A DNA stretch of 64,000 nt, from positions 23,961 through 87,960 of the IMG/VR virus record IMGVR_UViG_3300035515_000417; one strand, written 5' to 3'. The position numbers were made by a program, and so were the translations under genes. Every line of letters begins with the position of its first letter. Position 1 is the first letter of the stretch. The notes below the pieces were generated by a model. The model worked only from the letters and a program-made list of their open reading frames with translations. It was not told the DNA's origin and searched no databases. This DNA comes from a virus (lineage: Duplodnaviria > Caudoviricetes). Positions 41,624-48,278 of this stretch are shown in pieces.

Positions 41624-42199
41624 ATGGTAAAGTGTGATTGGTGTAAAAAGGAAGTAGAGGCTGTAGAGGATTATACAGACGTAATAGGTACAATAAGATA
41701 CATATGCAAGGCTTGTAGAGAAACAGTAGATAATTGTGAATGCAGAAAGTGTGGAACATTGACAGACCCCAGTATGATGATAGATGGTTTATGTACCACA
41801 TGTGTACAGGCACAAATCTATGAGAAATCAAAGTTACGTGAGGAAGTAGATTATGGTAGCCAGGAGGCAATAGATGCTACAGGTGGAAAGAAAATGACAA
41901 ATGAGGACCTTCAGATATGGCTTACTTTAGGTAACAGTTACTCACCAAATGATATGAGAAGCCATGAGATGAAAAGGTTGTGGATAATGGTAAAGCTTGG
42001 AACTTCTGGAATAACAGACGAGAAGGACATGCCAGAGTATATTGATTGCATGGAAAAGATGCTTGATAGAAACTTTACAAAGCTTATAGGGCATAGATGT
42101 GACGTTATAGCTGCTAAGGATTCAGAATCAAGAAAGAGAGTAAGGCAATCAAAAGTAATAGATTTTGAGAAAGATGTATACATAGTAGAGGCTGAATAG
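41624..42199 (+). CDS. Zinc-finger protein
   Basis: CDWC, CKAC, CxCxxC and CTTC in the N-terminal 60 aa. Confidence 0.7.
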   Translation: MVKCDWCKKEVEAVEDYTDVIGTIRYICKACRETVDNCECRKCGTLTDPSMMIDGLCTTCVQAQIYEKSKLREEVDYGSQEAIDATGGKKMTNEDLQIWLTLGNSYSPNDMRSHEMKRLWIMVKLGTSGITDEKDMPEYIDCMEKMLDRNFTKLIGHRCDVIAAKDSESRKRVRQSKVIDFEKDVYIVEAE

Positions 42200-42252: not shown

Positions 42253-43422
42253 ATGCTTAATTCTAATATGATGAATACACTGATAGATATAGGGTTTGGT
42301 GCTGACATAGATTCCCTAGAATCCTATTTAATAGATTATAGACATGCAGAGTTAGTAAGTGACTTATCTCTGTATGCCTATAATCATTTAAAATTAATGC
42401 AAATACTACAGGAAATAAGAAGTGGTTCAGTAGCGCTTAATAGTAGTAACAGATTGACAAAGACCAAACTTGATGAAAATAAGGATATAAGGTTTAGAGA
42501 GACACCTAACAAATACATAGAAATGTCATATGGAATAAACAGTCAAAAGCTTGAAGCATTTAGAAGTAATTTAAGGCTTGGTGTAAATGAGTCAAGGGAT
42601 TTAATAGCTTTGACTAATATACAGGGAATAAATATAAAGTGTGTCTATATTGAGGGTGAGTTGGACAGTGTAAATTTAATAGGTGACAATGCTAAATATA
42701 CAGACATCACAGAACAGGTAGAGGATTTACTTCCAAATTCAATTGATGAACTTGAAAGATTTGGTGTAGTAGAATTAAGAGGAAAGTTGACAATAAGTAA
42801 TAACAATAAAGCATTGCAGAATAAATCATTATGTATAGAGTGTGCTACAATGCATTGTATTAGGACAGATACAAATATAGATAAATTAGCAATTGTGATA
42901 AATGATATACTATTAGATAATTTTGTATATGAGGATATGCCATTTCATACACAGTGGGAAAAAATGGAATATCTTGAGGATTTAGAGTTTAATATACCAG
43001 AGTACAGTTTAGTACGAGGGGTATTTGAAGATACATTAGGTTCGGCATTAAATGGTTTCAATGAACATTTTAATGAAATAGAAGAGGCAGGAACAGATTT
43101 TAAGTTTAACAGTATAGATGTAAGAATAAATAATAAATTAAAGTGTTATGACCAAGATGAAAGAATTATATATAATTCTAAAGATTACAATAGCAATTCA
43201 ATTTTTACTTCTACAATAAAATCAATAAATACTAAGTTTAAGAATAATAGAATAATAGCCGTGTTAAATATAGTGGATACTCAGTGTAATGATGAGCTGG
43301 TCATAAGTGAGATAGATATAGATGATATTTACATGATAGAGAGCAATGAATTGAAGATAGGTGGGCAGGTAAGATTTTGTATAAGTGAAAGAAAAGCAGT
43401 GCCATACTTCAGTAAAAAATAA
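42253..43422 (+). CDS. Degenerate NAD-dependent DNA ligase N-half (adenylation + OB domains), catalytic motifs lost
   Basis: LTNIQGINIKCVYIEGEL aligns to motif I (KxDG...Y.xG). ELRGK for EVRGE, NSIDVR for DGIVVK, FHTQWEKMEYLEDLEF, OB-fold end LKIGGQV. Confidence 0.6.
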   Translation: MLNSNMMNTLIDIGFGADIDSLESYLIDYRHAELVSDLSLYAYNHLKLMQILQEIRSGSVALNSSNRLTKTKLDENKDIRFRETPNKYIEMSYGINSQKLEAFRSNLRLGVNESRDLIALTNIQGINIKCVYIEGELDSVNLIGDNAKYTDITEQVEDLLPNSIDELERFGVVELRGKLTISNNNKALQNKSLCIECATMHCIRTDTNIDKLAIVINDILLDNFVYEDMPFHTQWEKMEYLEDLEFNIPEYSLVRGVFEDTLGSALNGFNEHFNEIEEAGTDFKFNSIDVRINNKLKCYDQDERIIYNSKDYNSNSIFTSTIKSINTKFKNNRIIAVLNIVDTQCNDELVISEIDIDDIYMIESNELKIGGQVRFCISERKAVPYFSKK

Positions 43423-43604
43423 ATGTCAACTATAATAATAAATAGCTTATGAGGTACAAAACAAAGCAATGTTAAGTGCTAAAATACTTCAGTAAAATTA
43501 GAGGTTCTATAAACAAAACATTTAAAATAAAGGAAATTATAAAAAGGATTTAATTAGTGACCTAAAAAGGTACTAGTTAGGAAAAACTGAAAGGCAGGTT
43601 AAAA

Positions 43605-45392
43605 ATGAGTGACTTAGGATTTGAGTTTGATTTTGACGATAGTTTATTTGACACCAAGGCAAAGAACAATAATGACAAAGGGTTTGACTTAGATGATTTT
43701 GATGATTTTGAGGGTTCAGAAAACTCAGACAGTTTAGACAGTGGCAATGCCGAGGAATTACCAGAGAGTACAGAAAATAATGAGGAAGGCTTATTTGGTG
43801 ACCTTGACTCCTTTCTTGAAGAAACAGATTCACTGTCAGAATCCTTATTATCAGATGATGATTTAGGAGCTAACTTTGATGATGATTTAGATTTTGATGA
43901 ACCAGAAACAGACTCAGAGTCTGAAGAAGTTCAGACAAGTACAAATTTTGATGACATTTTAGATAATGCAGAGGTACATGATGATTCTGAATCAGGTTTA
44001 ATGAATAACAATACAGATTTTGATGAGGACATTAGTGATGGAGCTATAGTGGATGATATTGACCTTCATGATGAAGAGGAGGAAGTAATTCAACCAAGAG
44101 ATACAGATTTCATAAGTGAGACAGGCACTATAGTAGTTCAGGATGCTAATGATGATAAAGAGAATGGTTTTGAACTTGTATACGTTCCAATTGATAAGAT
44201 AGCAATAACTCAAAGAATTAGAAAAATGAAATCTGTTGAGAGCTTGGTACAATCAATCCAGTCCACAGGTTTACTGAAACCATTGGTAGTAGCAGAGACA
44301 GCTACAGAGGGAATGTATGTATTACTTGATGGATATAGAAGAATACAGGCTTGCGCAAGGGTAGGAAAAACAAAAGTGCCCTGCATAGTTAATACAAGAG
44401 TGAGTACACCAGAAATTCCAATACTTGAGGCTATGTACAACCACTCACAGAAGTATTCAATACAAGAACAGATAGGATACATAAACTACCTTGAGACACA
44501 GAAAGGTATAATGAATCCAGCAATGATAGAATACCTATTACAGATGAATAGCGGTGATTATACAAAGCTTAAAGATGTGTTGAATGATAATGATGATGAT
44601 ATAGTATCAAAGTTATACGATGGCGTTTATGATATAGCTACAGCCTTTAAAAAGCTTGAGCAGAGAAGAAAGAAAGAATCTGCTGAGGAAAAAGAGGATA
44701 GGAAAGCAGCTCAAGTTTATGATAACGAGCAGGAATCTGGTGTAGAGCAGATAAGAGGTTCTGGTGAGGATGCAGATGGTGAGGCATTAACAGAGGAACA
44801 AATTAATGCCTTGGCAATTAATCCTGAAAACCTTGACAAAGACATCGAGGATGCATCTATTGACGATATGGTACAAGCTGATAAAGATATAGAAGGTTTC
44901 GAACCACATAAGCAAAAGGTAGGTGAGCGTGAATATATAGACCCTATTATTAAAAAGACAGTCATGGCAAGGGATAATAGTACATGCCAGTGTTGTAAGA
45001 GAGGTGGTCAACAATATGTAGATGTACTAGATTATCACCATGTGTTACCCGTTTTTTTGGGTGGAGCTGATAACCCTGAGAATGGTATCATGTTATGTGT
45101 AACTTGTCATAGATTAGTACACTTATATTCAACAGCAGACCTTACAATAGATAGTGCACTACTTAATAGTAAGTATGAGGACATTGATGAAGAAGCTAAG
45201 CTGCGATATGAAAATGAACAAATCTTTGAGGATGAGAAGATGAGATTTAAGAGGATAATAAGGCTTGGTGGTGTAATAAGAAAAGGCATAGCACAGAAAG
45301 GTTTAAACAGAGAACAATATAAGAAGGAACACTCAAATGTTGGTATAGGCAGAAGGAAACCAGGTGTAAACGCAGAACAAGAGAAGTCCTAA
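43605..45392 (+). CDS. Fusion of acidic N-terminus, ParB/Srx domain and HNH endonuclease
   Basis: VESLVQSIQSTGLLKPLVV...LLDGYRRIQA (ParB box). VMARDNSTCQCC...YHHVLPVFLGGADNPENGIMLCVTCHRLVH (HNH). Confidence 0.8.
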   Translation: MSDLGFEFDFDDSLFDTKAKNNNDKGFDLDDFDDFEGSENSDSLDSGNAEELPESTENNEEGLFGDLDSFLEETDSLSESLLSDDDLGANFDDDLDFDEPETDSESEEVQTSTNFDDILDNAEVHDDSESGLMNNNTDFDEDISDGAIVDDIDLHDEEEEVIQPRDTDFISETGTIVVQDANDDKENGFELVYVPIDKIAITQRIRKMKSVESLVQSIQSTGLLKPLVVAETATEGMYVLLDGYRRIQACARVGKTKVPCIVNTRVSTPEIPILEAMYNHSQKYSIQEQIGYINYLETQKGIMNPAMIEYLLQMNSGDYTKLKDVLNDNDDDIVSKLYDGVYDIATAFKKLEQRRKKESAEEKEDRKAAQVYDNEQESGVEQIRGSGEDADGEALTEEQINALAINPENLDKDIEDASIDDMVQADKDIEGFEPHKQKVGEREYIDPIIKKTVMARDNSTCQCCKRGGQQYVDVLDYHHVLPVFLGGADNPENGIMLCVTCHRLVHLYSTADLTIDSALLNSKYEDIDEEAKLRYENEQIFEDEKMRFKRIIRLGGVIRKGIAQKGLNREQYKKEHSNVGIGRRKPGVNAEQEKS

Positions 45393-45441
45393 CAAAGTAG
45401 CACAATTAAAATTAAAATAACAAAGAAAAGGAGAAGTAATC

Positions 45442-45666
45442 ATGAAACTTTTAGACCAGAACAATTCAGAGAAAGAAGTTAGTGGGGGAGCAGTATTCGG
45501 ATACATATTATTAGCCGCAGCTGCTGTAGTAGTAATTGCCTTCTTGGTGTTTGTATGTATACAAAAGATTGGTGGTAGTAAAGAGACATCAGATACAGAA
45601 ACATCCAGAATAGAATCAGTTACGGATATATATGACTTCAATTTTGAAGAGGGATTGCTTAGTTAA
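45442..45666 (+). CDS. Small single-TM protein
   Basis: GAVFGYILLAAAAVVVIAFLVFVCI; RBS AAGGAG. Confidence 0.65.
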   Translation: MKLLDQNNSEKEVSGGAVFGYILLAAAAVVVIAFLVFVCIQKIGGSKETSDTETSRIESVTDIYDFNFEEGLLS

Positions 45667-45722
45667 ATATAAAATACAGTAGGTCAAGCTAAAATAGTTA
45701 AGAGTAAAAGAGGTGATGCAGT

Positions 45723-46181
45723 GTGAGAATGGTTAAGTCGAATAATGGTGATGATAACAATGAGGCTTCAAGAGAAGCAAGTAGAATAAAAGCTCAAATT
45801 AAAAAGATAAATCCAGATACAATAGAATGTAGGCACCTGACTAGTAATATTTTAGTAAAGGCTTATATAAAAAGTGATATGCATTTTGAAATAGGTCAAG
45901 TGGTGTTACTTGAATTTAGGAACAATGGTACATACAGTGGATACATAGTTGTAGACGACCTAATGGAGGAAATAGAGGCAGACGTATTAGAGGCTCAGCA
46001 CATAGTATCTGACGGAATGATGTATACCAGTTTAATTTTAGAGAATCCTAAGACAAAACAAAGAATGCATTCTTTAATACCAAGTAACAATCAATTGTTC
46101 TGTAATGCTAGTGTAGTGATAACAGGTGACAAAGTAAAATTAAGAATAAATAATGGAAATTTGTTTAATCTTGAGTATTAA
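45723..46181 (+). CDS. Hypothetical beta-rich protein
   Basis: 152-aa ORF with GAGGTG RBS; two similar beta-strand blocks ending GQVVLLEF and GDKVKLRI (OB-like, uncertain). Confidence 0.6.
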   Translation: MRMVKSNNGDDNNEASREASRIKAQIKKINPDTIECRHLTSNILVKAYIKSDMHFEIGQVVLLEFRNNGTYSGYIVVDDLMEEIEADVLEAQHIVSDGMMYTSLILENPKTKQRMHSLIPSNNQLFCNASVVITGDKVKLRINNGNLFNLEY

Positions 46182-46198
46182 TAAAGGAACAAGTAAAA

Positions 46199-47179
46199 AT
46201 GGGTATATCTTATGAAGAGGCATTAATGAATGGGCTAATATCTGAGACGACTAGGAATATGTTACCTGACAAATGTGCCTGTGGTAGTAAATATGAATTA
46301 AATGACTCATTGACAGTAATTCAATGTACTAATAAAAAGTGTAAGGAATACTTAATAGACAGAATAGAGAATTTTAATGTAATGGTTGGACTTGATATAG
46401 ATAAACCAGAGCTAAGAAACATAGTAAAGAAGCTTAATATTCAGACACCATATCAAATATTAATGTTAGATGAGGCATTAAGTAAAGATGTAATAACATC
46501 AAAGGATTTGTCAAATCATAAAGAAGTAGTGGATAGATTGGACAAAATAAAAAAAGCACCAGTGAGTTTAGTAAATATTGTAAGGATTTGTGGGATAAAG
46601 GTAATATCCAAAGTTGCATATAAGATATTTGATGGGTTCAATACAATTGATGAGGCTTACACAGAAATAGAAACAAGACAGATTACATTTATAAATGAAA
46701 GGCTTGGAATAAAAGATACAGACAGTAGTATATTTTCTGCTGACATATATAGTAAAATAATTGAGCTAAAAGATGAATTTATATTGGCAGAAATGTTACT
46801 GAATGTACAATCAGATAATCAGGATAACATTATAAGAATAGCCTTTACAGATAATGTACAGCCATATGTGAACAAGTCAGAGTTTGTTGAGTTCTTAAAT
46901 GATAAGTACAGTTACAAGTTTATATTGTTGAGTTCAGTGAATGACAATACTGATATACTTGTAAGTAATGCACTAAGTCAGAATACAAAATATAGAACAG
47001 CTCGAATAATAAACAATGAGCAGATAGCAAAAGAGATGAAGGCTGGTGAATTGGAACTCAAGGATGCAGAGAAGAAAATTAAATATCAGTTAAAACCAAG
47101 AGGTTGTAAGATATTTATAGACTCTCTGGAAAATGTGTTGGACAAGTTGGATGAAATAGAAAGGCATAATGCAGAATAA
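46199..47179 (+). CDS. NAD-dependent DNA ligase C-half homologue (Zn finger, HhH, BRCT)
   Basis: LPDKCACGS...QCTNKKC..YLIDRIENF, LDID, VRICGIKVIS..AYKIFDGF, BRCT IAFTD...SSVNDNTDILVS...TKYRTA. Confidence 0.65.
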   Translation: MGISYEEALMNGLISETTRNMLPDKCACGSKYELNDSLTVIQCTNKKCKEYLIDRIENFNVMVGLDIDKPELRNIVKKLNIQTPYQILMLDEALSKDVITSKDLSNHKEVVDRLDKIKKAPVSLVNIVRICGIKVISKVAYKIFDGFNTIDEAYTEIETRQITFINERLGIKDTDSSIFSADIYSKIIELKDEFILAEMLLNVQSDNQDNIIRIAFTDNVQPYVNKSEFVEFLNDKYSYKFILLSSVNDNTDILVSNALSQNTKYRTARIINNEQIAKEMKAGELELKDAEKKIKYQLKPRGCKIFIDSLENVLDKLDEIERHNAE

Positions 47180-47211: not shown

Positions 47212-47673
47212 ATGTCAGAGGCTAAGTATCGATTAGTAGGAAAGCAATTTGATGGTGTCGAGATAGCAAGACTAATAATAGAAAAGATAGATGAGGGTAG
47301 CGAGAGCAGGCAGCCAATATCTATCAAAAATGCAATAAAGCTTGCTAGGGATGAAAAGATACAAAATGCAAAAAGTGTATACAATGTAAATACAAATGAA
47401 TACTTACTTGATGTAAGAGGGGGATATGGAACTCTTGAAACAATTAAAAATGACTCAAACATAAGCATAGAGCTTAAGGCAAGGTTGATTACAGGTGGAA
47501 AATGTGTAGGATACAAAGCCATAGATAACAAGGGTAAGATATATAAGTTAAGTATAGAGAAGGTATGGGGATTGGCAGAGCAGGGTGCAGTAAATGGTGT
47601 AACAGCCAAGTTTATAGGTGATAAGAAAGTTTTAATAGGGAGCCTTGATGAACTGCCAAAAATCATTAATTAA
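47212..47673 (+). CDS. Stand-alone two-repeat GY-domain protein
   Basis: YRLVGKQFDG... and ARLITGGKCVGYKAID...LAEQGAVN...LDELP; the latter is very similar to 29080 repeat 2 (NGKCIGY). Confidence 0.75.
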   Translation: MSEAKYRLVGKQFDGVEIARLIIEKIDEGSESRQPISIKNAIKLARDEKIQNAKSVYNVNTNEYLLDVRGGYGTLETIKNDSNISIELKARLITGGKCVGYKAIDNKGKIYKLSIEKVWGLAEQGAVNGVTAKFIGDKKVLIGSLDELPKIIN

Positions 47674-47693: not shown

Positions 47694-47722
47694 TTGACAA
47701 ATTTGTTAAAATGTGTTAAAAT
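47694..47722 (+). promoter_or_regulatory. Sigma-A promoter of infC
   Basis: TTGACA-17 bp-TAAAAT with extended -10 TGT. Confidence 0.75.
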
Positions 47723-47771
47723 AAAAATAAGTTAGTAAAAATTTAAAATAAGAGTGAGGATAAAATATTAT

Positions 47772-48278
47772 ATGTACATTATTACTAGAGAGTCTAACAT
47801 TAAGAAATTGAGATTAGTTACAGGAAATAGAGAGGCTCCAAGAGATGTTGATTTGAGTGAAGCTCTCAATATGGCTGATGAGCAGGAATTAGACCTTATA
47901 TGTGTCAGTGAAAAAGATGACATGATCGTAGCTAAAATAGATGACTACAGTAAGATGCTATATGAGAAGCAAAAGAGAGAAAAAGAGAACAGAAAGAAAG
48001 CTAGGTTAAATTCTCAGGAATTAAAGGAAATACAGATAAGCAATGTAATAGCAGAGCATGATTTGTTGACAAAGGCAAAAAATGCCAGTAGGATACTTGG
48101 TAATGGTGACAAGGTAAAACTGGTAATTACATATAAAGGTAGGTCAATAAAATTGATTGGTCAGGGTGAATCTAAACTATATGAATTGACAGATAAGATA
48201 GAAACAAAATTTAACGTAGAGAGAGCACCTAAAATAGAGGGAAACAGAGTAACAATGATTTTGTCTCCAATGAAATAA
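47772..48278 (+). CDS. infC: Translation initiation factor IF-3 (divergent)
   Basis: LRLV...EALNMADEQELDLICVS...VAKIDDYSKMLYEKQKREKE...KEIQI...IAEHDLLTKAK.A..IL.NGDKVKLVI.YKGR...APKIEGNRVTMILSP. Confidence 0.85.
   Translation: MYIITRESNIKKLRLVTGNREAPRDVDLSEALNMADEQELDLICVSEKDDMIVAKIDDYSKMLYEKQKREKENRKKARLNSQELKEIQISNVIAEHDLLTKAKNASRILGNGDKVKLVITYKGRSIKLIGQGESKLYELTDKIETKFNVERAPKIEGNRVTMILSPMK

What the first reader, a model, noticed from the sequence alone, without database searches (positions are those of the whole stretch)
42253..47179. NAD-dependent DNA ligase split into two non-adjacent genes with all catalytic motifs degenerated
ORF 42253 follows the LigA adenylation + OB domain order but has TNIQG where KxDG should be (no adenylated Lys), ELRGK for EVRGE and NSID for DG. 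ORF 46199, 2.8 kb and three genes downstream, has the LigA C-terminal Zn-finger, HhH and BRCT series. Both frames are long and uninterrupted with RBSs, which argues for retained pseudoenzymes rather than decay. Inference: a nick-binding scaffold, dominant-negative ligase decoy, NAD/AMP sensor or anti-defence factor.
Basis: partly seen in the sequence, partly recalled or inferred. Interest (0 to 1): 0.7.

Follow-up and report, generated by a model that had tools for sequence, protein, structure and literature searches.

The report
Catalytically dead two-piece NAD ligase
A giant gut DNA element carries a bacterial-type DNA ligase encoded as two separate genes that has lost every residue needed to join DNA, yet has been conserved across a large family, so it is most likely a re-purposed non-enzymatic protein pair.

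Summary
Observation confirmed. ORF1 (42253-43422) folds as LigA domains Ia, NTase and OB (VIA Z 18-19 to LigA). ORF2 (46199-47179) folds as LigA Zn-finger, HhH and BRCT, and its best structural match is subunit B of the solved two-subunit ligase of phage PR1 (9hu3).

A ligase split at the OB/Zn hinge is already known from T5-like phages. The loss of chemistry is the new part. Of 142 full-length relatives of ORF1:
- 54 keep the motif I Lys together with TRG, EVRGE, DG and the motif V Lys.
- 88, including the window's protein, lack these. They form essentially one large clade with no conserved replacement Lys.

Intact and dead versions occupy the same slot in a syntenic block: GyrA, DnaB, RuvC-like, LigN, ParB/HNH, LigC. 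The dead halves evolve about three times faster than their neighbours but remain under purifying selection (dN/dS 0.11-0.14).

One related record with the dead pair (G001, 268 kb) also carries a canonical full-length LigA. A complete 250-kb relative (G002) with an intact split ligase has no other ligase.

Best reading: a retained pseudoenzyme pair, probably a DNA-bound scaffold or clamp, with sealing done by another ligase. The actual role is untested. Another first-stage note of this scan (e1-5769358) describes the same arrangement in another genome.

The parts
42253..43422 (+). LigN: N-terminal half of a split LigA (Ia-like about 42253-42456, NTase about 42457-43185, OB about 43186-43419), catalytically degenerate
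   Evidence: AF2 pLDDT 88.7; Foldseek E 1e-16 and VIA Z 18-19 to LigA; PF01653 only 19 bits against a cut-off of 27; 9 of 16 close relatives hit PF01653.
42295..42327 (+). FGADIDSLESY motif, the most conserved stretch; it lies at the first helix of the Ia-like domain and is shared by the dead and intact clades
   Evidence: Invariant columns in A1; also present in K-clade proteins.
42613..42627 (+). Relic of motif I: TNIQG, with NIQG at the KxDG positions (nucleophile Lys replaced by Asn)
42772..42786 (+). Relic of motif III: ELRGK in place of EVRGE (Glu, Arg and Gly kept; final Glu replaced by Lys)
   Evidence: The Lys is present in only 54% of the dead clade.
43108..43125 (+). Relic of motif IV: NSIDVR in place of DGxVxK (DG lost; Lys replaced by Arg)
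43605..45392 (+). ParB_N + HNH protein with an acidic N-terminal tail; a conserved backbone gene that always follows LigN
   Evidence: Pfam PF02195 and PF01844; 72-75% identical in L001, G001 and G003, 50-53% in G002 and L003.
45442..45666 (+). 74-aa ORF with one hydrophobic segment; L001 has a 71-aa ORF in the same slot, homology not tested
45723..46181 (+). 152-aa ORF with no family match; no counterpart found in L001 or G001, so a variable filler
46199..47179 (+). LigC: C-terminal half of the split LigA (Cys4 zinc finger 46274-46342, HhH region to about 46816, BRCT about 46820-47164)
   Evidence: Foldseek best hit 9hu3_B, E 2.8e-7; VIA 4glx Z 11.4 and BRCT Z 5-7; TIGR00575 E 3.8e-5; four Cys invariant in A2.
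46838..46855 (+). BRCT beta1 loop IAFTDN: the Gly of the usual T-G pair is an Asp in every dead-lineage LigC examined, and Gly in the one intact-lineage LigC and in true LigAs

Best explanation
ORF1 (LigN) and ORF2 (LigC) are the two subunits of a T5-type split NAD+-dependent DNA ligase lineage that lost ligase chemistry once, early in a large clade of giant gut extrachromosomal elements.

Residues lost, shown here:
- the adenylated Lys of motif I
- the TRG Arg
- the motif IV Asp
- the motif V Lys
- the Tyr/Asp NMN contacts of domain Ia
- the OB GRTG-type and RAtLHN-type DNA contacts
- in LigC, the BRCT T-G pair

The folds of all six LigA domains and the zinc site are kept, and both genes remain under purifying selection. 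The pair therefore cannot self-adenylate or seal nicks in the canonical way. It is kept as a non-enzymatic protein pair.

Inferred, not shown: it acts as a DNA-bound structural adaptor or clamp in the element's replication and recombination module (GyrB/A, DnaB, RuvC-like, ParB/HNH). DNA would be held mainly through the Zn-HhH half. Nick sealing would be done by another ligase: an element-encoded full-length LigA, as seen in G001, or the host's LigA.
For: Fold.

Loss of catalytic residues: seen in the window and in 88 of 142 full-length relatives. No clade-specific conserved Lys exists in the NTase domain.

Phylogeny: one major dead clade (80 rows, 76 without Lys). The window sits inside a starred 51-row clade in which 49 lack Lys. 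The tree needs 8 label changes against 43 in shuffles.

Positional orthology: the order GyrA-DnaB-p227-RuvC-Zn191-LigN-ParB/HNH-LigC-GY153 is the same in L001, G001, G003 (dead LigN) and G002 (intact LigN). L003 also has an intact LigN followed by ParB/HNH.

Rate shift: the intact pair L005-L003 has LigN 69% identical against ParB/HNH 51%. Dead pairs have LigN 35-46% against ParB/HNH 72-84%.

Selection: Nei-Gojobori for L001 against L004 gives dN/dS of 0.135 for LigN and 0.113 for LigC, against 0.03-0.06 for the neighbours, at dS of about 1.

A replacement ligase exists in one relative. G001 (dead pair) carries a 751-aa LigA with KLDG, TRG, LRGE, DGLV and the full Pfam domain set (PF01653 at 170 bits). 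G002 (intact split ligase, CheckV 100%) has no other PF01653, PF01068 or PF09414 hit.

Precedent: the poxvirus A20 middle domain is an inactive DNA ligase that serves as a replisome scaffold (PMC11142717). It also appears in the Foldseek list.
Against: - No binding, complex formation or DNA interaction was tested.
- The window's own record is only 39% complete and shows no second ligase. The association of a dead pair with a separate LigA rests on one record on each side.
- dS is near saturation, so the dN/dS values are approximate.
- Loss of the OB and NTase DNA-contact motifs means the N-half may not touch DNA at all.
- Retention of the motif III Glu/Arg and of a basic residue at the K290 position leaves room for residual nucleotide binding.
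- The conserved synteny of the whole block means that adjacency to ParB/HNH is not specific evidence of a functional link.
Confidence: 0.6

Rival explanations
1. Nick-binding decoy or nick protector. The dead heterodimer still closes around nicked DNA like LigA and blocks sealing by active ligases. This would preserve programmed nicks, for example those made by the neighbouring ParB/HNH nuclease or at a transfer origin.
For: The whole LigA clamp architecture is kept. An HNH nuclease gene always lies between the halves. T5-like phages combine a split ligase with site-specific nicks; the PDB 9hu3 title refers to a phage nick sequence.
Against: The OB GRTG and RAtLHN equivalents, the TRG Arg and the BRCT T-G pair are lost in the dead clade, while intact relatives keep them or related forms. 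The adjacency is part of block-wide synteny. No nicks are documented for these elements.
Confidence: 0.15
2. Still an enzyme. The pair catalyses ligation or another nucleotidyl transfer with an unconventional nucleophile or with a residue supplied in trans.
For: The motif III Glu, Arg and Gly are retained, and a basic residue sits at the K290 position. ELRGK has an invariant Lys among the 16 closest relatives.
Against: That Lys is present in only 54% of the wider dead clade. No NTase column has a clade-wide conserved Lys. The Ia NMN contacts, the motif IV Asp and the motif V Lys are all lost together. Evolution is about three times faster than in the neighbours.
Confidence: 0.07
3. Ligand sensor or counter-defence factor. 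The degenerate adenylation pocket binds NAD+, AMP or a related nucleotide, or mimics host LigA towards a host system.
For: The pocket shell is partly kept (E168, R170, basic residue at K290). Evolution is fast compared with the neighbours.
Against: The Ia NMN-binding Tyr/Asp are lost. There is no PADLOC hit. The gene sits in a replication block, not in a variable accessory region.
Confidence: 0.08
4. Neutral decay. The two ORFs are remnants of a ligase made redundant and are on their way to loss.
For: They diverge faster than flanking genes. A canonical LigA is present in G001.
Against: 88 representative clusters keep full-length open frames of 345-410 aa. dN/dS is 0.11-0.14. Fold-determining residues are conserved. 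The AF2 models are confident. Both halves are present in every related record examined.
Confidence: 0.03

Closest known systems
Two-subunit NAD+-dependent DNA ligase of T5-like phages (T5 ligA/ligB; PR1 heterodimeric ligase, PDB 9hu3 and 9i5i)
   Same: The split is at the same hinge, between the OB domain and the zinc finger. Subunit A is NTase+OB and subunit B is Zn+HhH. 9hu3_B is the best structural match of ORF2 (Foldseek E 2.8e-7; VIA Z 9.5), and 9hu3_A matches ORF1 at Z 15.2. T5 ligA/ligB are named as subunits in PMC3632103.
   Different: - The PR1 subunit A keeps the motif I Lys (PKLDG in the alignment). Here it is Asn, and most other catalytic residues are gone.
- Here subunit B also carries a BRCT domain with a C-terminal extension.
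- The two genes are separated by a conserved ParB/HNH gene.
- Sequence identity is only 14-18%.
Bacterial LigA (E. coli 2owo, 5tt5, 4glx; S. aureus 3jsl)
   Same: All six domains are in the same order. The NTase superposes at rmsd 2.9 A, Z 18. Zn+HhH gives Z 11.4.
   Different: It is encoded as two proteins. The nucleophile Lys, R136, D285, K314 and the Ia NMN contacts are missing. Scores are far below the Pfam and NCBIfam cut-offs.
Intact split-ligase clade ('K clade') on related giant elements (G002 = IMGVR_UViG_3300045988_184922; L003)
   Same: It occupies the same genomic slot, has the same N-terminal G-x-D-[IV]-D-x-L-E-S-Y motif and the same partner genes. It is therefore the positional ortholog.
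   Different: It keeps K-x-N-G, TRG, EVRGE, DG and the motif V Lys. It scores 69.6 bits on PF01653 and evolves more slowly than ParB/HNH.
Poxvirus A20 (MPXV A22) middle domain, an inactive DNA ligase in the polymerase holoenzyme
   Same: It is a ligase NTase+OB fold without catalytic residues, kept as a structural bridge in a replisome of a large DNA element (PMC11142717). It appears among the Foldseek matches of ORF1.
   Different: The Foldseek match is much weaker than those to LigA (E 6e-8 and TMq 0.27, against E 1e-16 and TMq 0.48). It is one domain of a larger protein, belongs to a eukaryotic virus, and has no Zn/HhH/BRCT partner.

Membership tests
NAD+-dependent DNA ligase LigA (active enzyme) | Domain order Ia-NTase-OB-Zn-HhH-BRCT | tested here: met
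   ORF1 covers LigA residues of about 24-393 and ORF2 about 361-586 plus BRCT, on two polypeptides.
NAD+-dependent DNA ligase LigA (active enzyme) | Motif I KxDG with the adenylated Lys | tested here: not met
   NIQG in the window. Lys is absent in 88 of 142 relatives, including all 16 close ones.
NAD+-dependent DNA ligase LigA (active enzyme) | TRG Arg, motif IV Asp-Gly and motif V Lys | tested here: not met
   Ile, Asn-Ser and Asn at these columns in the window. The motif III Glu and Arg are kept.
NAD+-dependent DNA ligase LigA (active enzyme) | Domain Ia NMN-contact residues (E. coli Y22, H23, D32, Y35, D36; numbering from memory) | tested here: inconclusive
   In the MAFFT alignment the EYD-type Tyr-Asp pair is kept in the K clade but not in the dead clade. 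The alignment is less certain in this helical region.
NAD+-dependent DNA ligase LigA (active enzyme) | Curated family score cut-offs | tested here: not met
   PF01653: 19 against 27 bits. NF005932: 16.5 against 369. TIGR00575: 22 against 444.
T5-type two-subunit NAD+ ligase | Break between the OB domain and the zinc finger, with subunit B being Zn+HhH | tested here: met
T5-type two-subunit NAD+ ligase | Catalytically competent subunit A | tested here: not met
T5-type two-subunit NAD+ ligase | The two subunits form a heterodimer on nicked DNA | not testable with these tools
Pseudo-ligase scaffold (poxvirus A20 type) | Ligase NTase+OB fold lacking catalytic residues but under selection | tested here: met
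Pseudo-ligase scaffold (poxvirus A20 type) | Physical bridging of replisome subunits | not testable with these tools
   The only evidence is the gene's position in a replication gene block.

The most novel reading that the evidence does not exclude
The dead LigN/LigC pair is a new class of ligase-derived, non-catalytic DNA clamp. It still recognises strand discontinuities and works with the ParB/HNH protein encoded between its halves. It might hold or mark programmed nicks for replication initiation, partition or conjugative transfer of giant gut plasmid-like elements, while a separate domain-tagged LigA does the ordinary sealing.
Probability: 0.2. Interest if true: 0.8.

Novelty: new variant of a known kind. 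Interest (0 to 1): 0.6.

Why it matters
Non-catalytic derivatives of DNA ligases appear to be rare. The one precedent confirmed here is the ligase-like middle domain of poxvirus A20 (PMC11142717), and one literature search of the held library for inactive LigA homologues found nothing relevant.

In this case a complete six-domain LigA, already split into two subunits, lost its chemistry once. It then diversified into at least 80 clusters at 50% identity on giant, poorly understood gut elements. Intact positional orthologs are available as a natural control.

This gives a clean system for two questions: what a ligase architecture can do without ligation, and how these elements organise replication. 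It is also a practical warning for annotation, because such genes may be transferred the label 'DNA ligase'.

Tried and rejected
The 236,864-bp contig that carries the window's exact proteins could therefore not be searched for a second ligase.
- blastn and tblastn against cultured phages found no match.
- IMG/VR scans with the LigN and LigC alignments found nothing because the peptide patterns were too narrow. ParB/HNH and DnaB alignments recovered the same three records.
- GTDB genome contigs gave no relatives with LigN or ParB/HNH.
- The search for fused forms longer than 682 aa found none, which is weak evidence. The close-relative scan with G001's LigA found only itself.
- The promoter and terminator scan found no more sites than shuffled sequence gives.
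- PADLOC gave no hit for either half.
- The idea that the ELRGK Lys is a relocated nucleophile was rejected, because it is present in only 54% of the dead clade.
- The idea that ParB/HNH is a homing endonuclease that split the gene was rejected. It is the best-conserved gene of the block and is present in both clades.
- Overall net charge does not separate the dead and intact clades.
- Literature searches for inactive LigA homologues and for a PR1 ligase paper found nothing relevant in the held library.
Full report
**What is there**

The window is the last 64 kb of an 87,960-bp IMG/VR record with a CheckV completeness estimate of 39%. It has about 33% G+C and almost every gene on the + strand. 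The exact products of both ORFs also occur on a 236,864-bp contig.

ORF1 is best started at the ATG at 42253. GGAG lies 9 nt upstream, and this start gives the same N-terminus as the relatives. It ends at 43422. ORF2 runs from 46199 to 47179. Three ORFs lie between them:
- a 595-aa ParB_N + HNH protein at 43605-45392 (Pfam)
- a 74-aa ORF with one hydrophobic segment
- a 152-aa ORF with no family match

**Are they ligase halves?**

Sequence signals are weak but consistent.
- PF01653 hits ORF1 at 19 bits (cut-off 27), and 9 of its 16 close relatives hit it, with a best E of 4.5e-6.
- A profile of the family finds LigA adenylation domains in the PDB.
- TIGR00575 positions 387-643 align with ORF2 residues 18-272 (E 3.8e-5).

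Structure settles the question.
- The AF2 model of ORF1 (pLDDT 88.7) matches LigA at Foldseek E 1e-16 and VIA Z 18-19. The NTase superposes at 2.9 A over about 215-228 residues, and the whole model covers E. coli LigA residues of about 24-393.
- The model of ORF2 (pLDDT 79.9) has subunit B of the PR1 phage heterodimeric ligase, 9hu3_B, as its best Foldseek hit (E 2.8e-7).
- ORF2 residues 13-206 match LigA Zn+HhH (4glx residues 361-586, Z 11.4). Residues 208-322 match dozens of BRCT domains at Z 5-7.

**The split is not new**

T5 encodes NAD-dependent ligase subunits A and B (PMC3632103). A T5-like two-chain enzyme has been solved on nicked DNA (9hu3, 9i5i). The cut here is at the same OB/Zn hinge. 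Other notes of this scan describe further split NAD ligases in large phages.

**The loss of chemistry is real and clade-wide**

An exhaustive HMMER search found 225 representatives at 50% identity. The 140 hits of 300 aa or more, together with the LigN proteins of L001 and L003, gave 142 rows for the alignment.
- 54 keep the motif I Lys. They mostly read K-x-N-G, TRG, EVRGE, D-G and have the motif V Lys.
- 88 lack the Lys and, with it, the TRG Arg, the motif IV Asp and the motif V Lys.

The window reads NIQG, LIG, ELRGK, NS and N at these places. In the alignment the Tyr-Asp NMN-contact pair of domain Ia and the OB GRTG-type and RAtLHN-type motifs are also gone in the dead group. The Ia pair is kept, and the OB motifs persist in modified form, in the Lys-bearing group.

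The columns conserved at 75% or more in the dead group are almost all fold-determining Gly, Tyr, Asp, Thr and Phe residues shared with the intact group. No NTase column has a clade-wide Lys. The Lys of ELRGK is present in only 54%.

LigC also changed. The Gly of the BRCT T-G pair is Asp in every dead-lineage sequence examined (the 12 rows of A2 plus G001 and G003). It is Gly in the intact-lineage LigC of G002 and in true LigAs. That this pair contacts a 5' phosphate is my recollection of BRCT literature and was not tested here.

**Evolutionary setting**

A FastTree rooted on full-length LigAs puts 76 of the Lys-less proteins in one 80-row clade. The window's protein lies inside a starred 51-row subclade in which 49 lack Lys. 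The label needs 8 changes on the tree against about 43 in shuffles.

Three IMG/VR records and two metagenome contigs carry the same gene block: GyrA, DnaB, p227, RuvC-like, a 191-aa zinc-ribbon protein, LigN, ParB/HNH, 0-2 small ORFs, LigC, a 153-aa protein and IF-3.
- In G002 (249,770 bp, CheckV 100%) LigN is of the intact type, at 69.6 bits on PF01653, and sits in the same slot.
- L003 holds only the LigN-ParB/HNH part of the block. Its LigN is also intact and is again followed by ParB/HNH.

The dead genes are therefore positional orthologs of an intact split ligase. ParB/HNH is a backbone gene and not the mobile element that cut the ligase. It is 72-75% identical between the window and L001, G001 and G003 (93% between L001 and G001), where LigN is 35-37% and LigC 38-41%.

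**Selection**

Relative to ParB/HNH, LigN is slow in the intact lineage and fast in the dead lineage.
- Intact pair L005-L003: LigN 69% identical, ParB/HNH 51%.
- Dead pairs: LigN 35-46% identical, ParB/HNH 72-84%.

For the closest pair (L001 and L004, dS about 1), Nei-Gojobori dN/dS values are as follows.

| Gene | dN/dS |
|---|---|
| LigN | 0.135 |
| LigC | 0.113 |
| GyrA, DnaB, p227, RuvC-like, Zn191, ParB/HNH | 0.03-0.06 |

Constraint is relaxed about threefold but is far from neutral. Together with 88 intact full-length representatives, this excludes simple decay.

**Is there another ligase?**

- The window's own 88-kb record has none, but it is incomplete.
- G001 (268,054 bp, 89% complete), whose LigN is dead, carries a 751-aa canonical LigA 112 kb downstream. 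It reads KLDG, TRG, LRGE and DGLV and has significant PF01653, PF03120, PF12826 and PF00533 domains.
- That LigA has an about 100-aa N-terminal extension containing an IGYK motif.
- G001 also has a PF09414 RNA-ligase-family gene.
- G002, with the intact split ligase, has no other hit to the three ligase families.

With one record on each side this is suggestive and not a proven pattern.

**Mechanism**

Shown here:
- The pair has the LigA fold but lacks the residues for adenylation and for canonical nick engagement by the N-half.
- The zinc site and at least three HhH hairpin glycines are kept in LigC.
- Both genes are selected, co-occur one to one, and sit in a replication and recombination block with no + strand terminator-like site between 41.4 and 47.8 kb.

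Inferred:
- They form a non-catalytic complex, anchored on DNA mainly by LigC.
- The complex serves as an adaptor or clamp in the element's replisome or repair machinery, in the manner of the inactive ligase domain of poxvirus A20 (PMC11142717).
- Sealing is done by a separate LigA.

The rivals are a nick-protecting decoy, residual unconventional catalysis, a nucleotide sensor or counter-defence factor, and neutral decay. They are listed separately with their odds.

**Context not tested here**

Earlier follow-ups of this scan argue that the record is a giant plasmid-like element with a conjugation-like locus and not a phage (e1-5891118, e1-5891124). I did not test this, and it does not change the reading of the ligase pair. 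Another first-stage note (e1-5769358) reports the same dead split ligase with a ParB/HNH gene in between in another genome. This agrees with the family's breadth found.

Noticed in passing
window 47754-48278 (+): The element encodes its own translation initiation factor IF-3 homologue (TIGR00168, 118 bits against a cut-off of 60). It is conserved in all related loci, just downstream of the ligase block.
   Followed up: partly
window 43605-45392 (+): The ParB_N + HNH fusion has an acidic N-terminal tail of about 170 aa. It is the best-conserved gene of the block (72-75% identity between the window and L001, G001 and G003, and 93% between L001 and G001, where the ligase halves are 35-41% and 75-77%). 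Its HNH part resembles IscB-type and type IV restriction HNH domains.
   Followed up: partly
L013:1018-3273 (G001 = IMGVR_UViG_3300045988_167287, 226161-228416): This canonical full-length LigA has an extra N-terminal domain of about 100 aa containing an IGYK motif. The motif is reminiscent of the element-specific 'GY' domain seen on several window proteins (47212, 49275, 50489). BLAST support is weak (E 0.015-0.06).
   Followed up: partly
L006:13066-13551: In G003 a 161-aa ORF lies immediately upstream of LigC. It is 50% identical to a 123-residue stretch of ParB/HNH and looks like a partial duplicate.
   Followed up: no
K-clade proteins (e.g. L005:8137-9348, L003:30-1235): The apparently intact split ligases read K-x-N-G rather than KxDG. 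They have Ala, Ser or Gln at the position of E. coli K290 and lack the Tyr/His of the Ia 'YY' motif. Their activity should not be taken for granted.
   Followed up: no
window 41624-42199 and 47212-47673 (+): The zinc-ribbon protein upstream of LigN and the 153-aa protein downstream of LigC evolve as fast as the ligase halves (35-44% identity where DnaB is 72-74%). They may be partners or equally relaxed.
   Followed up: no
L016 (G001 183752-184234): A PF09414 RNA-ligase-family gene (open frame of 323 aa, 52.7 bits) is present in G001 only.
   Followed up: no
window 47694-47722 (+): A near-consensus sigma-70-like promoter (TTGACA, 17-nt spacer, TAAAAT, with an extended TG) lies just before the IF-3 gene. 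It is the only 11-of-12 match in the 6.4 kb scanned.
   Followed up: no
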